DNA of 10,031 nt. It comes from a virus. The stretch lies in the UHGV virus genome UHGV-1820336, one strand, 5' to 3'. Both the position numbers and the translations under genes were made by a program. Under the pieces are notes generated by a model, which was not told the origin of the DNA, made no database searches, and worked only from the letters and a program-made list of their open reading frames with translations. Below are positions 136 through 8,375 of the stretch, piece by piece (positions within the stretch are counted from its first letter, which is position 1; each line of letters begins with the position of its first letter).

Positions 136-150
136 TTACCTTAAAGGTAT
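136..150. promoter_or_regulatory. Imperfect copy of the TTACC-N5-GGTAA palindrome (TTACC-TTAAA-GGTAT) upstream of the integrase gene
   Basis: Seen in sequence; 9/10 match to the palindrome found at the immunity region. Overlaps a second inverted repeat GGTAT-N6-ATACC (146-161). Function inferred only. Confidence 0.3.
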
Positions 151-2987: not shown

Positions 2988-3929
2988 TTACATAGATGTT
3001 TCGTTTAATTCTTCCCGACGAACGCTGTAAACGTCGGTGGCTTTTGCCAGCAGTTCGTCATCATCTGAAAGTTTTTGTGCAATGTATTTGTAAGCCTTAT
3101 CCAGTTCGGAGACAGTGCTGTAATTCATCGCTGCGCTGGTAAAGGCCATCAGCATTTCTTCTGGATCACGGCTATCCGATTTACGCGTTTGCTCATCAGG
3201 CTTTTTCGCTGGTTTAGCGTTGATCAGACTGTTCATTCCCGCAGCAGTGGTCGTTTGCGGAGTAATGTCTCGCTCAACGCGCGGTGCCGTTTCCTGTAAT
3301 TCGTCTGGGGTGTAGACGCCCATGATTACGTCAGGACAGTGCAGGCGAGACCAGCGTTTTGTCGCAAGGTATGCGAGTTGTTGTTTCGGATCACTGGCCC
3401 AAAGTGTGGAGTTTCTTACCTGTGCTTGAGACAGCATTAACTCAAGCACTCGAGGTTGATCCTCGCCCTTCATGGTTGCCCATACGCGAACACCGCAGCC
3501 TTCTTCGTCTTTTAGAGTCCAGCCTGGTGCGATATATGGATTGCCGTTTTTGGATGTTTTCTCAACAAACTTACCGATCACGCGTTCCCACGGCCCGAAC
3601 CACTCGTAGTTGATGCGATCTTTTGTTGGCGACATCGTTGAGATAACTGCGTTTACTAATTGGGCTTCATAACCTAGCGTGCCGTTCACAACATGGGTTT
3701 TCTGAGCCACGGCAAACGGGTTCATTCCCCACTGCGCAGCCTGCATTGCCACGGCCATGCAATCAGCTGGTTTCCCGGCGAGGTGCGCCGGTACCGTTAC
3801 GCGGCTTTGCGCCATTACCTCGGCGAATTTCATCAGTTGGTTCAAGCCGTCTGGGCTGAAAATAGTTGCAGCAGTTCCAGCGATTGCTGTGTCTACTGGT
3901 GCGTTGATGTTTGCGATGTCGTTGCTCAT
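2988..3929 (-). CDS. Redbeta/Bet (RecT-superfamily) single-strand annealing recombinase
   Basis: Protein from MSNDIANINAP. Shares recognisable motifs with lambda Bet as recalled from memory: NPF/NPW, W-x-S-x-PK-x-x-L...KRW, GVYTPDE versus GIYDKDE, and ERDITP. ATG at 3929 overlaps the TGA of the upstream exonuclease gene (ATGA). Confidence 0.85.
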   Translation of the reverse strand: MSNDIANINAPVDTAIAGTAATIFSPDGLNQLMKFAEVMAQSRVTVPAHLAGKPADCMAVAMQAAQWGMNPFAVAQKTHVVNGTLGYEAQLVNAVISTMSPTKDRINYEWFGPWERVIGKFVEKTSKNGNPYIAPGWTLKDEEGCGVRVWATMKGEDQPRVLELMLSQAQVRNSTLWASDPKQQLAYLATKRWSRLHCPDVIMGVYTPDELQETAPRVERDITPQTTTAAGMNSLINAKPAKKPDEQTRKSDSRDPEEMLMAFTSAAMNYSTVSELDKAYKYIAQKLSDDDELLAKATDVYSVRREELNETSM

Positions 3930-4747
3930 ATGTACATATCCTGTTTGCGTGCCCACTCAGGGCGTTTAATGATTTCCACACCGCCCCATTCATCATTGAT
4001 ACGGCATTCGTGATAGGTATTCAGATCCCGGCGGAACAGAGCGTGCCCGGCATCGACATCCTGCGCATCCAGCTCGAACACGCGTACCGGATACCGACCA
4101 CAATCAATGCTTTCGCTCACGGCAAGAAAGAAAAAACCATGCGGCTGACCAGTAACCCTCATTGCGCCTTCGCGGTACATTGCGTCCTGCACGTGGTAGC
4201 GGAATTCCTCGATGTGGCGTGCAAAACGGTCCATATCTGCAACCTTTTTCACGTCGACGATCACGTTGTGCTCGTTCAGCCATTTGTCTGGACGAATTCG
4301 GCACAACTCCCCCGTCTCTTCATCGTTCCAGTACATTGATGCTTCGCAGTAACCAGGTGCTTCCAGCATCCAGCGTGCCGCCGGGTGAGCCATTGCGCTA
4401 TCACGCATCAGCTCCAGTTTCCGCCACTGCTCGGCATCAAGTACCGTAATCCCCATATCCGCCACATCACGAAGAAATTCCTCTTCGTCAGCTTTACCTT
4501 GTTTCGTCCGACGATCGAATTTCGGTGAAACAATGAAGCGTTTGTCGAACTCTCCAGGCTCCAGAAGCAGACAGTGCAATGCGGTTCCCATATCCAGTGC
4601 AGACTTTTTCTCTTCGTCTTCTGGTGCTGCCTGAACCCATTTAAGAAGCGCCGGATTCTTGGCAACCATGTCCAGTTGCGACTTACTCACGCCGTCACCG
4701 GCGTGGTAGTCTTCGTTGCTGATGTCGAAATAAATTCCCGGTTTCAT
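3926..4747 (-). CDS. PD-(D/E)XK family recombination exonuclease, RecE C-terminal-domain-like (DUF3799-type)
   Basis: 273 aa. N-terminus MKPGIYFDISNEDYHAGDGVSKSQLDMVAKNPALLKW...LDMGTALHCLLLEP is typical of RecE-like / exodeoxyribonuclease VIII-type phage nucleases. Sits immediately upstream of, and coupled to, the annealing protein. Family assignment from memory, not searched. Confidence 0.75.
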   Translation of the reverse strand: MKPGIYFDISNEDYHAGDGVSKSQLDMVAKNPALLKWVQAAPEDEEKKSALDMGTALHCLLLEPGEFDKRFIVSPKFDRRTKQGKADEEEFLRDVADMGITVLDAEQWRKLELMRDSAMAHPAARWMLEAPGYCEASMYWNDEETGELCRIRPDKWLNEHNVIVDVKKVADMDRFARHIEEFRYHVQDAMYREGAMRVTGQPHGFFFLAVSESIDCGRYPVRVFELDAQDVDAGHALFRRDLNTYHECRINDEWGGVEIIKRPEWARKQDMYI

Positions 4748-5198: not shown

Positions 5199-5217
5199 AA
5201 CTTGTTACCTCGGTCTG

Positions 5218-5294
5218 TTACCGTTGAGGTAATAATTATGCGTATATGGTTTGATGTCAATAGATATGAGTTAAAAAAATTACCCGTTAGGTAA
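5218..5294. promoter_or_regulatory. OL-like region: two perfect operator palindromes flanking a candidate leftward promoter
   Basis: TTACC-GTTGA-GGTAA at 5218-5232 and TTACC-CGTTA-GGTAA at 5280-5294, centres 62 bp apart. Between them on the - strand is a perfect -35 TTGACA (5260..5255) and an AT-rich -10 region (around 5232-5240; hexamer assignment ambiguous). Confidence 0.6.
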
Positions 5295-5304
5295 TCGAAT
5301 AGGC

Positions 5305-5331
5305 AATAAAAAAGCCGCCATAAGGCGGCTT
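5305..5331 (-). terminator. Rho-independent terminator of the repressor gene
   Basis: Stem AAGCCGCC (5312-5319), loop ATAA, stem GGCGGCTT (5324-5331). On the - strand the hairpin is followed by TTTTTTATT. About 20 nt downstream of the repressor stop. Confidence 0.6.
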
Positions 5332-5351
5332 ACTTACTGAAAAATATGGTT

Positions 5352-5936
5352 TTATTGTTTGTTTTTTTCGTTCTGGTTGATGACAAATTCAATGTAACTT
5401 TCGATCTTTGCTTTCTCGGTTTCGGGTAACAATGCGTAGCGCGAGCGATCATAGTTGATGGTCGCAGGGTCGTGCGGGTGAATCAGTAATTCATAGCCGT
5501 GACGCCCGAATGCGGATGCAACATTCTCCAGGGTGGAAATGGAAACGCTGACCTCATTGTTTAACAGGCGGCTGATTGTCACCTGGGCTACGCCGGATGC
5601 GCGGTGAAGTTTTCCCTGTGTTGAAAGGTCGCGGCTTTCGCTCATCCAGCGTTCCAGGTTGTGAGCCGCCAGCTGGCCAATGTCGCTTGGGCCGACAGGC
5701 TGAAAACCTTCCTGAGAAAGCGAGCGATCGATATCAAGCCAGTTACGGGGTTTATTGGCGGCAGCTTCAATTTTTCGTGCAACCTGGTCGCCGATAACCT
5801 TCTTGCCAAGAGCCCAGCGGTTTACCAGATTTGCCTGAGTTCCAAGTTTTTCAGCCATCCGCGTCTGAACACCATTGAATTCACGGTCGATCAAGTCGTT
5901 GAGATTTTGCCTGCGGACGTCCTGGATACTTTTCAT
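5352..5936 (-). CDS. Phage repressor (CI-like function) with two predicted helix-turn-helix regions and no LexA/S24 peptidase domain
   Basis: 194 aa. N-terminal segment QTRMAEKLGTQANLVNRWALGKKVIGDQVARKIEAAANKPRNWLD and a second segment RASGVAQVTISRLLNNEVSVSISTLENVASAFG both resemble XRE/CI-type HTH motifs. Divergent from a Cro-like gene with operator palindromes in between. No Ala-Gly / Ser-Lys peptidase motifs recognised. Confidence 0.8.
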   Translation of the reverse strand: MKSIQDVRRQNLNDLIDREFNGVQTRMAEKLGTQANLVNRWALGKKVIGDQVARKIEAAANKPRNWLDIDRSLSQEGFQPVGPSDIGQLAAHNLERWMSESRDLSTQGKLHRASGVAQVTISRLLNNEVSVSISTLENVASAFGRHGYELLIHPHDPATINYDRSRYALLPETEKAKIESYIEFVINQNEKNKQ

Positions 5937-5991
5937 TTTCTGGAAAATCGCCTCATATATGAATCAGTAGATGATTCAATTTAAAGCAATA

Positions 5992-6054
5992 TTACCCAAC
6001 AGGTAAATGCACCCCACAGGTAACTATCCTTGATTTTTGTTACCTTATGGGTGA
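5992..6054. promoter_or_regulatory. OR-like region: three operator sites plus candidate PR
   Basis: Perfect TTACC-CAACA-GGTAA at 5992-6006. Imperfect GCACC-CCACA-GGTAA at 6009-6023 and TTACC-TTATG-GGTGA at 6040-6054. Centre spacings 17 and 31 bp. Candidate rightward promoter TTGTTA (6037-6042) -17- TATTAT (6060-6065), with an alternative -35 TTGATT at 6030-6035; the third site overlaps it. Confidence 0.6.
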
Positions 6055-6090
6055 ATATTTATTATCTGAAATAAATATCAGGCAATAGCT

Positions 6091-6321
6091 ATGAGCGATA
6101 ACGGACATTTCGATTTCAAAAAGCACTGGCTTGCACTTACTCCGGATGAGCGTGAAGCCTTCGCACAGGAAGCCGGAACGACGAGTCACTATATCCAGAC
6201 TCACTTAACAGGTAAGCGCAAAATGCCAGGTAAGGTATTGATGAATGGGCTTTTTAAAGCCTGTAAAACAAGACAATGGCTGCGCTCAAAAGCAGAATTG
6301 GCATACTTCTTCTACTCATGA
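6091..6321 (+). CDS. Cro-like small DNA-binding protein (YdaS/DUF1019-like HTH)
   Basis: 76 aa. Divergent from the repressor gene across the operator region. Segment EAFAQEAGTTSHYIQTHLTGKRKMPGKVL resembles Cro/YdaS-type HTH proteins. Weak SD. Confidence 0.65.
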   Translation: MSDNGHFDFKKHWLALTPDEREAFAQEAGTTSHYIQTHLTGKRKMPGKVLMNGLFKACKTRQWLRSKAELAYFFYS

Positions 6322-6342
6322 TATCCAGCCACAACCCTCTGT

Positions 6343-6366
6343 AGACCGCCATCCGGCGGTCTTTTC
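6343..6366 (+). terminator. Rho-independent terminator after the Cro-like gene (tR1-like position)
   Basis: Stem AGACCGCC (6343-6350), loop ATCC, stem GGCGGTCT (6355-6362), followed by TTTTCAT. Confidence 0.6.
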
Positions 6367-6376
6367 ATATCTATTC

Positions 6377-6437
6377 GTACCTCAAAGGTAATAAAAAACC
6401 AAATCTGGTTGATCTTTTTTTTGTGTCAGCACAAAAT
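6377..6437 (+). promoter_or_regulatory. Operator-like site plus candidate promoter for the zinc-ribbon / O / P genes
   Basis: GTACC-TCAAA-GGTAA at 6377-6391 (9/10). Then 17 bp to a candidate -35 TTGATC (6409-6414), 17-nt spacer, candidate -10 CAAAAT (6432-6437). Promoter call is weak. Confidence 0.35.
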
Positions 6438-6687: not shown

Positions 6688-7479
6688 ATGAGCAGACATG
6701 CAACAGATTGGGCCTGGGAGACAGATCCAGGTAGCTCATCATTAAAGCTCATACTGCTCTCGATGGCTGACAGAGCCGATGAATATAACCTCTGCTACCC
6801 CAGCATAGAACGCCTCGTTAAAGACACTTGCCTGAATAAAAAAACCGTGCAGGCCGGGCTTATATCGCTCATGAAAATGGGGCTTATTTCAGATACCGGA
6901 GAGAGAAAGGGAGCGACAAAAAGAGTGCGGGTTTTCTCTCTTAATATAACCAAAAACGGGAACATTAAAGGCAACCGGGAGGGGGGCAATGAACCCGAAA
7001 ACGGGAATATACCCGAAAACGGGAATATACCCAAAAACGGGATGTTGAATGATCCCAAAAACGGGATCCAGAACCAGTCATATAACCAGTCATTTAACCA
7101 AGAGAGGGAGAGCAGGACAAAAAGCGGGGATTCTGTGCCTCATGACCCCGGAGCAAACAACGCCGTGATGAATAACTTTGTTCCTCCTGGTGGGCCAGGG
7201 CAATTAGGCAAATTTGTCATGCATGAACAATGGCAGCCATCAGATGACTTTCTTCGGAAAAGCTCATTGCAGGGGATCTACCTGGACAGTCTGCCAACGG
7301 CACAGGAACTTGCAGAGTTCAGAATTTACTGGATGGCTGAGGGTAAGGCATACCATCAGGCACAGTGGGAGCAGAAGCTGGCAAGGCGGCTGCAGATTAG
7401 CAGACAGAAGCAATCAACATTACCTGATAACAACGTTCCGCACTGGAACAGCCCTGAAGCATGGGAGGATTTCTTGTGA
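6688..7479 (+). CDS. Replication initiator, lambda O-like (N-terminal HTH DNA-binding domain; origin iterons embedded in the linker region)
   Basis: 263 aa. N-terminus WAWETDPGSSSLKLILLSMADRADEYNLCYPSIERLVKDTCLNKKTVQAGLISLMKMGLI is typical of phage replication-initiator HTH domains. Central low-complexity KNG/ENG repeat is encoded by the iterons. SD GGAG 7 nt upstream. The next gene is P-like. Confidence 0.8.
   Translation: MSRHATDWAWETDPGSSSLKLILLSMADRADEYNLCYPSIERLVKDTCLNKKTVQAGLISLMKMGLISDTGERKGATKRVRVFSLNITKNGNIKGNREGGNEPENGNIPENGNIPKNGMLNDPKNGIQNQSYNQSFNQERESRTKSGDSVPHDPGANNAVMNNFVPPGGPGQLGKFVMHEQWQPSDDFLRKSSLQGIYLDSLPTAQELAEFRIYWMAEGKAYHQAQWEQKLARRLQISRQKQSTLPDNNVPHWNSPEAWEDFL
6950..7068. 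repeat. Candidate replication origin: iterons CC(C)RAAAACGGGA, palindromic core CCCG-AAAAC-GGG
   Basis: Copies start at 6950, 6994, 7012, 7030 and 7054. 6994-7011 and 7012-7029 are an exact 18-bp tandem duplicate, CCCGAAAACGGGAATATA. Followed by a 12-bp direct repeat AACCAGTCAT(A/T)T at 7072-7095. Resembles the lambda ori iteron design (recalled as TCCCTCAAAACGAGGGA) located inside the O gene. Confidence 0.7.
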
Positions 7480-8298: not shown

Positions 8299-8375
8299 TT
8301 ACCTGTTAGGTAATAAAATATTCTAAAATCTATTGATTTCGTGTCTTATGTGGTTTTTAATTACCTCAGAGGTAA
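8299..8375 (+). promoter_or_regulatory. Second operator pair flanking a candidate rightward promoter upstream of the DUF1064-like gene
   Basis: Perfect TTACC-TGTTA-GGTAA at 8299-8313 and TTACC-TCAGA-GGTAA at 8361-8375, centres 62 bp apart (same as the OL pair). Between them -35 TTGATT (8333-8338), 17-nt spacer, -10 TTTAAT (8356-8361). The downstream site overlaps the SD (GAGG 8369-8372) of the ATG at 8379. Confidence 0.6.

What the first reader, a model, noticed from the sequence alone, without database searches (positions are those of the whole stretch)
5352..5936. Repressor with two HTH-like regions and no autocleavage domain, implying antirepressor-type induction
The 194-aa repressor shows two XRE-like HTH segments and none of the LexA/CI-type peptidase motifs, so RecA-stimulated self-cleavage is unlikely. 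Induction would then need an antirepressor or another trigger, and none is identifiable in this window. A two-HTH architecture could also explain recognition of the bipartite TTACC/GGTAA site.
Basis: inference. Interest (0 to 1): 0.45.

Follow-up and report, generated by a model that had tools for sequence, protein, structure and literature searches.

The report
Phage repressor switched off by antirepressor
This gene is the already published master repressor of phiV10/epsilon15-type E. coli prophages, most likely inactivated by a small SOS-controlled antirepressor encoded far outside this window rather than by self-cleavage; its second "DNA-binding-like" region corresponds to a dimerisation domain, so the finding is correct in outline but ordinary.

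Summary
The 194-aa ORF at 5352-5936 (minus strand) is real. It has two XRE-type helix-turn-helix regions and no S24 peptidase domain. It is 100% identical to the repressor of phages phiV10 and vB_EcoP_ZX5. It is 42% identical over its full length to Rep of Salmonella phage SPC32H (PDB 5D50/5D4Z, E=4e-42). SPC32H Rep is not cleaved; a LexA-controlled 86-aa antirepressor, Ant, inactivates it.

No ant gene or LexA box lies in the window. In the closest complete genome (E. coli MS 198-1) and in phages carrying the identical repressor, an Ant about 88% identical to SPC32H Ant sits beside the tail-fibre gene, behind a near-consensus LexA box. Rep and Ant co-occur in 35 of 36 phage records. ZX5, with the identical repressor, is induced by mitomycin C.

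The secondary idea is not supported. The second HTH corresponds to SPC32H Rep's middle dimerisation domain. The TTACC-N5-GGTAA sites are symmetric palindromes, best explained by two copies of the basic, conserved N-terminal HTH. They occur 8 times in the window (0.17 expected) and overlap the early promoters.

Novelty: already known. Interest: low.

The parts
5352..5936 (-). rep: 194-aa prophage master repressor (SPC32H Rep family); 100% identical to phiV10 p40 and ZX5 ORF21
5727..5936 (-). Rep residues 1-70: N-terminal Cro/YdaS-type HTH, inferred to be the DNA-binding domain (pI 10.0; 54% identical to SPC32H Rep; helix 3 NLVNRW invariant across clades)
5673..5726 (-). Rep residues 71-88: variable, disordered linker (pLDDT <50 for residues 73-84)
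5478..5672 (-). Rep residues 89-153: the second HTH_3-type domain, corresponding to the middle dimerisation domain (MDD) of SPC32H Rep
5355..5477 (-). Rep residues 154-194: C-terminal segment corresponding to the CAD of SPC32H Rep (tetramerisation and Ant binding); 49% identical
5312..5331 (-). intrinsic terminator-like hairpin just downstream of rep
   Evidence: annotated as a terminator in phiV10
5218..5232 (.). operator palindrome TTACCGTTGAGGTAA, abutting the -10 hexamer of the leftward early promoter candidate (OL-like)
   Evidence: equivalent sites are annotated as repressor binding sites in epsilon15
5280..5294 (.). operator palindrome TTACCCGTTAGGTAA, 62 bp from the previous site and upstream of the -35 hexamer (OL-like)
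5232..5260 (-). leftward early promoter candidate (TTGACA, 17-nt spacer, AATTAT) for the recombination operon
5992..6006 (.). operator palindrome TTACCCAACAGGTAA in the rep/cro-like intergenic region (OR-like)
6040..6054 (.). operator palindrome TTACCTTATGGGTGA (1 mismatch), between the -35 and -10 hexamers of the rightward promoter candidate
6037..6065 (+). rightward early promoter candidate (TTGTTA, 17-nt spacer, TATTAT) for the cro-like and replication genes
6091..6321 (+). divergent 76-aa gene (phrog_35, 'transcriptional repressor'), in the Cro-like position
6377..6391 (.). further palindrome GTACCTCAAAGGTAA (1 mismatch), after the cro-like terminator
8299..8313 (.). further perfect palindrome upstream of the DUF1064 gene
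8361..8375 (.). further perfect palindrome, 62 bp from the previous one
136..150 (.). palindrome with 1 mismatch upstream of int

Best explanation
The ORF encodes the lysogeny repressor (Rep) of a phiV10/epsilon15-type (Uetakevirus) prophage that, in relatives, integrates at the 3' end of guaA. By homology with SPC32H Rep it has three parts: an N-terminal HTH that binds DNA, a second HTH-fold domain used for dimerisation, and a short C-terminal segment that builds the tetramer and is the docking site for the antirepressor. Pairs of N-terminal domains would read the symmetric TTACC-N5-GGTAA operators that overlap the leftward and rightward early promoters on either side of rep and recur at other promoters of the prophage. 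Rep has no S24 peptidase and is not expected to be cleaved. Induction most likely works indirectly: DNA damage inactivates host LexA, which de-represses an 85-aa Ant gene next to the tail-fibre gene, roughly 30 kb from rep and outside the window, and Ant binds the Rep C-terminal region and releases Rep from DNA. Shown here: the homology, domain layout, absence of S24, operator enrichment and positions, the presence of Ant with a LexA box in relatives, and Rep/Ant co-occurrence. Taken from the literature: repressor activity of the identical protein, mitomycin C induction of ZX5, and the SPC32H domain roles. Inferred: that this Rep binds these operators through its N-terminal domain, that it is a tetramer, and that this Ant binds it.
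For: Full-length match to the PDB 5D50_A repressor (E=4e-42) and to 5D4Z, Rep residues 92-198 (E=4e-20). 42% identity to SPC32H Rep. Foldseek places the model's C-terminal two-thirds on 5d4z_H with TM 0.83 and 2.4 A rmsd. No S24 domain and no AG/CG dipeptide. 100% identity to the phiV10, ZX5 and PAS61 repressors. For ZX5, overexpressed ORF21 repressor gives no free phage and 99.99% less endolysin mRNA, and mitomycin C raises the titre from 1e7 to 1e9 PFU/mL. SPC32H Rep consists of DBD + MDD + CAD, with the CAD mediating tetramerisation and Ant binding; the tetramer binds DNA and an Ant tetramer binds two Rep dimers. The Ant homologue in MS 198-1 is 88% identical to SPC32H Ant, with the LexA box TACTGTATAAATATACAGTT immediately upstream; the same arrangement is seen in SPC32H and ZX5. 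35 of 36 phage records with a full-length Rep have Ant, and all 35 Ant records have Rep. The rep region is in 541 and the ant locus in 529 of 5426 complete E. coli genomes. The operator palindrome occurs 8 times against 0.17 expected and overlaps promoter candidates. The same sites are annotated as repressor binding sites in the epsilon15 record.
Against: The ant gene is not in the window, and no complete genome in the collection matches the whole window exactly (best: MS 198-1, 96% coverage at 99.1% identity), so Ant in the window's own prophage is inferred from relatives. Rep is only 42% identical to the solved protein (34% in the MDD), so oligomeric state and Ant docking are extrapolated. 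The primary SPC32H papers could not be read, so domain roles come from citing papers and my memory of the abstracts. The only antirepressor tested in an E. coli relative is the Bro-N/Ant-domain fusion, not the small LexA-controlled Ant. The ZX5 authors assign DNA binding to the C-terminal HTH, but only from a domain-database hit.
Confidence: 0.82

Rival explanations
1. Both HTH regions bind DNA: the N-terminal and second HTH of one chain each read one arm of the TTACC/GGTAA site, or the second HTH reads additional DNA such as the partner site 62 bp away.
For: The second region is a statistically solid XRE-type HTH (HTH_3 E=1.2e-9) and keeps the canonical signature, with Q107, Q118 and R123 invariant in close relatives. 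The ZX5 authors assign DNA binding to it. Operators occur in pairs 48-62 bp apart.
Against: The site is a two-fold symmetric palindrome, which implies two identical reading heads. The homologous region of SPC32H Rep is described as a dimerisation domain, with the DBD at the N-terminus. The second domain is neutral (pI 7.1) while the N-terminal domain is basic (pI 10.0). Its helix 3 varies between clades (Q118 is Pro in SPC32H and epsilon15) although all clades use the same half-site, whereas the N-terminal helix 3 NLVNRW is invariant.
Confidence: 0.07
2. Induction in these E. coli prophages runs mainly through the larger Bro-N/Ant-domain fusion protein, which sits behind an IsrK-like sRNA and a C4 antisense RNA (a P1 immI-like module), and not through the small LexA-controlled Ant. 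This does not exclude the best explanation.
For: The fusion's C-terminal 78 residues are 40-42% identical to Ant (E=1e-19). Rfam finds C4 (77.8 bits) and isrK (67.4 bits) in its leader. This is the protein whose overexpression lowered lysogeny in ZX5.
Against: It has no LexA box of its own, while ZX5 is induced by mitomycin C. SPC32H lacks this fusion (one Ant place in the record) yet is induced through the small Ant. The small Ant, with its LexA box, is conserved at 88-100% identity.
Confidence: 0.2
3. Classical LexA/CI-type induction: Rep is inactivated by RecA-stimulated self-cleavage.
For: The phage family is SOS-inducible.
Against: There is no S24 domain at E<=1 in Pfam, NCBIfam or PHROGs. 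There is no AG/CG cleavage dipeptide. The C-terminal part superposes on the all-helical Rep 92-198 structure, not on a beta-rich peptidase. From memory of Kim & Ryu 2013, the homologue SPC32H Rep is not cleaved on SOS induction; a review cites that paper for LexA-controlled antirepressor induction.
Confidence: 0.02
4. The protein is not a phage repressor but the antitoxin of a toxin-antitoxin pair (HigA/VapI-like), as one phage record annotates it.
For: The BP9 record calls it 'plasmid maintenance system antidote protein VapI'. There are weak NCBIfam hits to HigA and HipB (E about 1e-3 to 0.1, far below the cut-offs).
Against: There is no adjacent toxin gene. It sits in the classical immunity position, between divergent early operons with operators. 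The identical protein has direct repressor activity.
Confidence: 0.01

Closest known systems
Rep/Ant lytic switch of Salmonella phage SPC32H (PDB 5D50, 5D4Z; Kim & Ryu 2013 J Virol; Kim et al. 2016 PNAS)
   Same: Same genus (Uetakevirus) and the same gene order (rep between the recombination operon and the cro-like/replication genes; ant next to the tail spike/fibre gene). Full-length Rep homology, no S24 domain, Ant about 88% identical, a LexA box in front of ant, and the same TTACC-N5-GGTAA operator half-sites.
   Different: Rep is only 42% identical (NTD 54%, MDD 34%, CAD 49%) and the operator spacers differ. The E. coli phages carry an extra Bro-N/Ant-domain fusion with a C4/IsrK leader that SPC32H lacks.
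Repressor of phages phiV10 (p40) and vB_EcoP_ZX5 (ORF21)
   Same: 100% identical protein. phiV10 annotates 'two helix-turn-helix motifs'. ZX5 ORF21 was shown to repress lytic genes.
   Different: Nothing in the protein. The window is a mosaic sibling prophage, not either phage itself.
Epsilon15 gp38 repressor and its annotated operators
   Same: 42% identical. The current GenBank record cites HHpred 5d50_A and marks ATTACC-N5-GGTAAT sites as repressor binding sites at the same relative positions.
   Different: Salmonella host; A/T-rich operator spacers.
LexA-controlled antirepressors of coliphage 186 (Tum) and the Gifsy/Fels prophages
   Same: The same logic: an uncleavable repressor, with SOS sensed through LexA control of a small antirepressor (review).
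   Different: No similarity between those antirepressors or repressors and Rep/Ant was looked for here. From memory of the Kim & Ryu 2013 abstract, SPC32H Ant is structurally distinct from them.
Phage P1/P7 immI (C4 antisense RNA - icd - ant) and the Gifsy-1 isrK locus
   Same: C4 and IsrK-like RNAs precede the Bro-N/Ant-domain gene in the sibling prophage.
   Different: This module is outside the window and controls the second antirepressor, not rep. Its role here is untested.
Lambda CI / LexA (S24 autocleaving repressors)
   Same: The position of the gene between OL-like and OR-like operators, and an N-terminal HTH.
   Different: No S24 domain and no cleavage site. The oligomerisation module is an HTH-fold domain plus a short C-terminal segment.

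Membership tests
SPC32H-type Rep (Uetakevirus repressor, PDB 5D50_A) | Full-length sequence homology to SPC32H Rep | tested here: met
   phmmer E=4e-42 over residues 1-190; BLASTP 42% identity, E=2e-53
SPC32H-type Rep (Uetakevirus repressor, PDB 5D50_A) | Three-part architecture: N-terminal HTH DNA-binding domain, middle HTH-fold dimerisation domain, C-terminal tetramerisation/Ant-binding segment | tested here: met
   Pfam HTH hits at residues 21-61 and 104-148. AF2 model with two helical bundles plus a C-terminal helix. Foldseek TM 0.83 and 2.4 A to 5d4z_H.
SPC32H-type Rep (Uetakevirus repressor, PDB 5D50_A) | Partner Ant gene with a LexA box in the same phage | tested here: met
   Met in relatives with the identical Rep: MS 198-1, ZX5 and phiV10, with 35/36 co-occurrence. 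It could not be checked in the window's own genome because ant lies outside the window.
SPC32H-type Rep (Uetakevirus repressor, PDB 5D50_A) | Immunity-region synteny and palindromic TTACC-N5-GGTAA operators at the early promoters | tested here: met
SPC32H-type Rep (Uetakevirus repressor, PDB 5D50_A) | Tetramer binds DNA; Ant binds the C-terminal region and releases Rep from DNA; Rep is not cleaved | not testable with these tools
   Needs SEC/EMSA/pull-down and a western blot after SOS induction. Only overexpression phenotypes exist for the identical protein.
LexA/CI-type autocleaving repressor (Peptidase S24) | C-terminal S24 peptidase domain with a Ser/Lys dyad | tested here: not met
   No S24 hit at E<=1 in Pfam, and none in NCBIfam or PHROGs. 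The C-terminal part is helical and matches Rep 92-198.
LexA/CI-type autocleaving repressor (Peptidase S24) | Ala-Gly or Cys-Gly cleavage site in the linker | tested here: not met
   No AG or CG dipeptide anywhere in the protein
XRE/Cro-C1 HTH superfamily | HTH_3-type helix-turn-helix domain above the Pfam gathering score | tested here: met
   HTH_3 38.5 bits against a cut-off of 23; HTH_26 26.2 against 22. Structural neighbours are SinR, DdrO, Stl and C.BclI.
Type II antitoxin (HigA/VapI/HipB) | Score above the family cut-off and an adjacent toxin gene | tested here: not met
   HigA 18.7 bits against a cut-off of 47.7; HipB 12.7 against 79. The neighbours are phage early genes.

The most novel reading that the evidence does not exclude
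phiV10-type E. coli prophages may run a two-input induction switch on one repressor. One input is an 85-aa Ant gated by LexA (DNA damage). The other is a Bro-N/Ant-domain fusion gated by C4/IsrK-type RNAs. Both would dock on the same C-terminal region of Rep, and both genes also sit next to Rep operator palindromes. Only the first has been studied, in Salmonella SPC32H, and only the second has been tested, by overexpression in E. coli ZX5. A smaller variant of this reading is that the second HTH domain keeps some DNA contact that helps bridge the operator pairs spaced 62 bp apart.
Probability: 0.35. Interest if true: 0.4.

Novelty: already known. Interest (0 to 1): 0.12.

Why it matters
Scientifically it adds little: the repressor, its two HTH motifs, its operators and antirepressor-type induction are already documented for identical or homologous phages. 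Three practical points remain. First, about 10% of complete E. coli genomes carry this prophage type (541 of 5426), so SOS-inducing drugs are expected to induce it through LexA and Ant rather than through repressor cleavage. Second, the small Ant is still labelled "hypothetical protein" in RefSeq and in phage records, "unknown function" in PHROGs (phrog_450), and has no Pfam family, so automated pipelines miss the inducer. Third, the ZX5 paper assigns DNA binding to the C-terminal HTH, which probably should be corrected to the N-terminal one.

Tried and rejected
1. I tried to read the primary SPC32H papers (DOI 10.1073/pnas.1602618113, PMC4983836, PMC3807360) and the epsilon15 genome paper (PMC2698709). 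None is held, so the domain roles come from citing papers and my memory of the abstracts.

2. I first took the phiV10 Bro-N protein (p23) as the Ant equivalent. Its PDB match to 5d50_E is marginal (E=0.34). The true orthologue is the 85-aa gene next to the tail-fibre gene, and the Bro-N protein turned out to carry an Ant-like C-terminal domain.

3. I looked for the window's exact source, to see ant in the same prophage. No complete E. coli genome matches the whole window at 100%, and L002 lacks exact copies of the window's first and last 200 bases. The Ant evidence therefore rests on relatives.

4. I looked for covariation between operator half-sites and helix-3 residues across four Rep clades. 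All clades share the same half-site, so there is no covariation to use, only the invariance of the N-terminal helix 3.

5. The attachment core reported for ZX5 is not inside the window.

6. Rfam finds no RNA family in the window itself.

7. Two Python calls failed only because the loci are stored together in one file.

Full report
**Observation.** The window carries a 194-aa ORF on the minus strand at 5352-5936. Pfam detects HTH_3 with two passing stretches (best at residues 106-147, E=1.2e-9), HTH_26 at 104-144, and a Cro/YdaS-type HTH at residues 21-61. No Peptidase_S24 family appears even at E<=1. NCBIfam and PHROGs return only HTH and repressor families. There is no Ala-Gly or Cys-Gly dipeptide. 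An AlphaFold2 model (mean pLDDT 74) gives two helical bundles (helices 4-59 and 86-151), a disordered linker and a long C-terminal helix. So is the statement that no antirepressor is visible in the window: Ant has no tblastn hit and there is no LexA box.

**Identity.** The window is the left arm of a phiV10/epsilon15-type (Uetakevirus) prophage, running from int through the recombination genes and rep to the cro-like and replication genes. In the closest genome, and in the ZX5 paper, this prophage type sits at the 3' end of guaA. The protein is 100% identical to the repressor of phiV10 (p40), vB_EcoP_ZX5 (ORF21), PAS61, the O157 typing phages 9 and 10, and others. The rep region occurs in 541 of 5426 complete E. 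coli genomes. The phiV10 record already notes "two helix-turn-helix motifs".

**Solved homologue.** The best PDB match is 5D50_A "Repressor" (E=4e-42, residues 1-190), followed by 5D4Z (Rep residues 92-198, E=4e-20). Both come from Salmonella phage SPC32H, whose rep is 42% identical. Foldseek places the C-terminal two-thirds of the model on 5d4z_H with TM 0.83 and 2.4 A rmsd. All other structural neighbours are XRE-type HTH domains.

**Domain roles.** Papers citing the SPC32H work describe Rep as an N-terminal DNA-binding domain, a middle dimerisation domain (MDD) and a C-terminal domain (CAD) that makes the tetramer and binds the antirepressor Ant. They also report that the tetramer is the DNA-binding form, that the pairs of N-terminal domains come from different dimers, and that a tetrameric Ant binds two Rep dimers. 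From my memory of the abstract of Kim & Ryu 2013 (paper not held): SPC32H Rep is not cleaved during the SOS response, and ant is repressed by LexA.

**The missing antirepressor.**
- SPC32H ant is an 86-aa gene on the minus strand just before the tailspike gene.
- At the same position in the closest complete genome (E. coli MS 198-1, locus L002) there is an 85-aa "hypothetical protein" that is 88% identical to SPC32H Ant.
- It is preceded by TACTGTATAAATATACAGTT, a near-consensus LexA box, and by a TTACCTGAAAGGTAA palindrome. SPC32H and ZX5 have the same arrangement.
- In the phage collection, 35 of the 36 records with a full-length Rep-family gene also have Ant, and all 35 Ant records have Rep. 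The exception is BP9.
- In complete E. coli genomes the ant locus occurs in 529 genomes against 541 for rep, each with 3 plasmid-borne places.
- Ant has no Pfam family and falls in phrog_450 "unknown function", which is why it goes unannotated.

**Experimental support in E. coli.** For ZX5, which has the identical repressor, overexpressed ORF21 abolished free phage and reduced endolysin and holin mRNA by about 99.99%. Mitomycin C raised the free-phage titre from 1e7 to 1e9 PFU/mL. Overexpression of the "ORF4 anti-repressor" lowered the prophage count a thousand-fold. ORF4 is a Bro-N protein whose C-terminal 78 residues are 40-42% identical to Ant (E=1e-19). These E. coli phages therefore carry two Ant-domain proteins. 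The leader of the fusion gene contains a C4 antisense RNA (77.8 bits) and an IsrK-like sRNA (67.4 bits), as in P1 immI-type antirepressor control.

**Operators.** TTACC-N5-GGTAA occurs 8 times in the window at <=1 mismatch, against 0.17 expected. Two sites, 62 bp apart, flank a leftward promoter candidate (-35 TTGACA at 5260-5255, -10 ending at 5232). Two more lie between rep and the cro-like gene, and one of them sits inside the spacer of a rightward promoter candidate at 6037-6065. Further sites lie at 136, 6377, 8299 and 8361. In the full prophage there are more at the ant, Bro-N and structural-gene promoters. The same palindrome sits at the same relative positions in SPC32H, epsilon15, Tyrion and a Klebsiella relative. 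The epsilon15 record already annotates these sites as repressor binding sites and cites 5d50_A for its repressor.

**Which HTH reads the site.** The site is a perfect two-fold palindrome with half-site centres 10 bp apart. That is the signature of two identical domains on one face of the DNA, not of two different domains in one chain. The N-terminal domain is basic (pI 10.0, 13 Lys+Arg). The second HTH is neutral (pI 7.1) and the C-terminal segment is acidic. The N-terminal helix 3 (NLVNRW) is invariant across all clades that share the half-site. Helix 3 of the second HTH varies: Q118 is Pro in SPC32H and epsilon15. The ZX5 paper's statement that the C-terminal HTH is the DNA-binding part rests only on a conserved-domain hit.

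**Mechanism and confidence.** Rep tetramers most likely hold the early promoters shut through their N-terminal HTHs. DNA damage removes LexA from the ant promoter, and Ant docks on the Rep C-terminal region and releases Rep. The second antirepressor may add another input. Confidence is 0.82. The main caveats:
- ant is outside the window, and the window's exact source genome is not in the collection.
- Oligomeric state and Ant docking are extrapolated from a 42%-identical homologue.
- The primary papers could not be read.

**Novelty.** Already known. The protein is identical to published phage repressors. The mechanism was established for a congeneric phage with crystal structures, the operators are annotated in GenBank, and repressor/anti-repressor activity was shown for ZX5. 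Interest is low (0.12). The only mildly new points are the unannotated LexA-gated Ant in E. coli relatives, the Ant-like C-terminal domain of the Bro-N antirepressor with its C4/IsrK leader, and the probable misassignment of the DNA-binding domain in the ZX5 paper.

Noticed in passing
L002:36898-37584 (-) in E. coli MS 198-1; ZX5 L007:3174-3869: The Bro-N 'anti-repressor' of phiV10-type phages carries a C-terminal domain 40-42% identical to the small SPC32H-type Ant (E=1e-19). These prophages therefore encode two Ant-domain proteins, and some records show three places.
   Followed up: yes
L002:37633-37718 (-) and L002:37743-37819 (-): A C4 antisense RNA (RF01695, 77.8 bits) and an IsrK-like sRNA (RF01394, 67.4 bits) lie in the leader of the Bro-N/Ant-domain gene, resembling P1 immI and Gifsy-1 isrK control of antirepressors.
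   Followed up: partly
window 8299-8313, 8361-8375, 6377-6391, 136-150; L002 16163, 19371, 36811, 37856, 37949, 39069: The Rep operator palindrome is not limited to the OL- and OR-like regions. It recurs, often in pairs 62 bp apart, in front of the DUF1064 gene, near int, and at the terminase, structural, Bro-N and ant promoters. Rep may therefore silence most transcription units directly.
   Followed up: partly
L003, L004, L005, L006 immunity regions compared with window 5200-6400: Rep clades only 42-78% identical (phiV10, Tyrion, Klebsiella BUCT711, epsilon15/SPC32H) all use the same TTACC/GGTAA half-sites and share the invariant helix-3 motif NLVNRW. Only the 5-bp spacers differ, which leaves open how, or whether, these phages are heteroimmune.
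   Followed up: partly
window 6993-7042: An 18-bp unit (ACCCGAAAACGGGAATAT) is repeated 2.8 times at 96% identity inside the DnaT/O-like replication initiator gene (6688-7479). It encodes the NGNIPENGNIP peptide repeat and looks like an iteron-type origin within the initiator gene, as in lambda O.
   Followed up: no
window 2988-3956 (-) and 3926-4747 (-): RecT-like and PD-(D/E)XK (RecE-like) genes are two overlapping ORFs here and in MS 198-1, whereas the phiV10 record annotates a single fused recET gene.
   Followed up: no
PP488543.1 (Escherichia phage BP9, 138 kb), record positions 133449-134649: This is the only phage record with this repressor but no Ant, and it annotates the repressor as 'VapI antidote'. 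The 138-kb record probably contains a fragment of a phiV10-type prophage.
   Followed up: no
PMC9782041, section 3.3: The ZX5 paper assigns DNA binding of the repressor to its C-terminal TreR-like HTH, and it mentions neither SPC32H nor LexA nor the small Ant gene. The SPC32H structural work places DNA binding in the N-terminal domain.
   Followed up: partly
L002:43860-43983 (+): An STnc490 sRNA match (146 bits) lies next to an IS200C transposase at the right end of the prophage in MS 198-1. This is the usual IS200-associated RNA.
   Followed up: no
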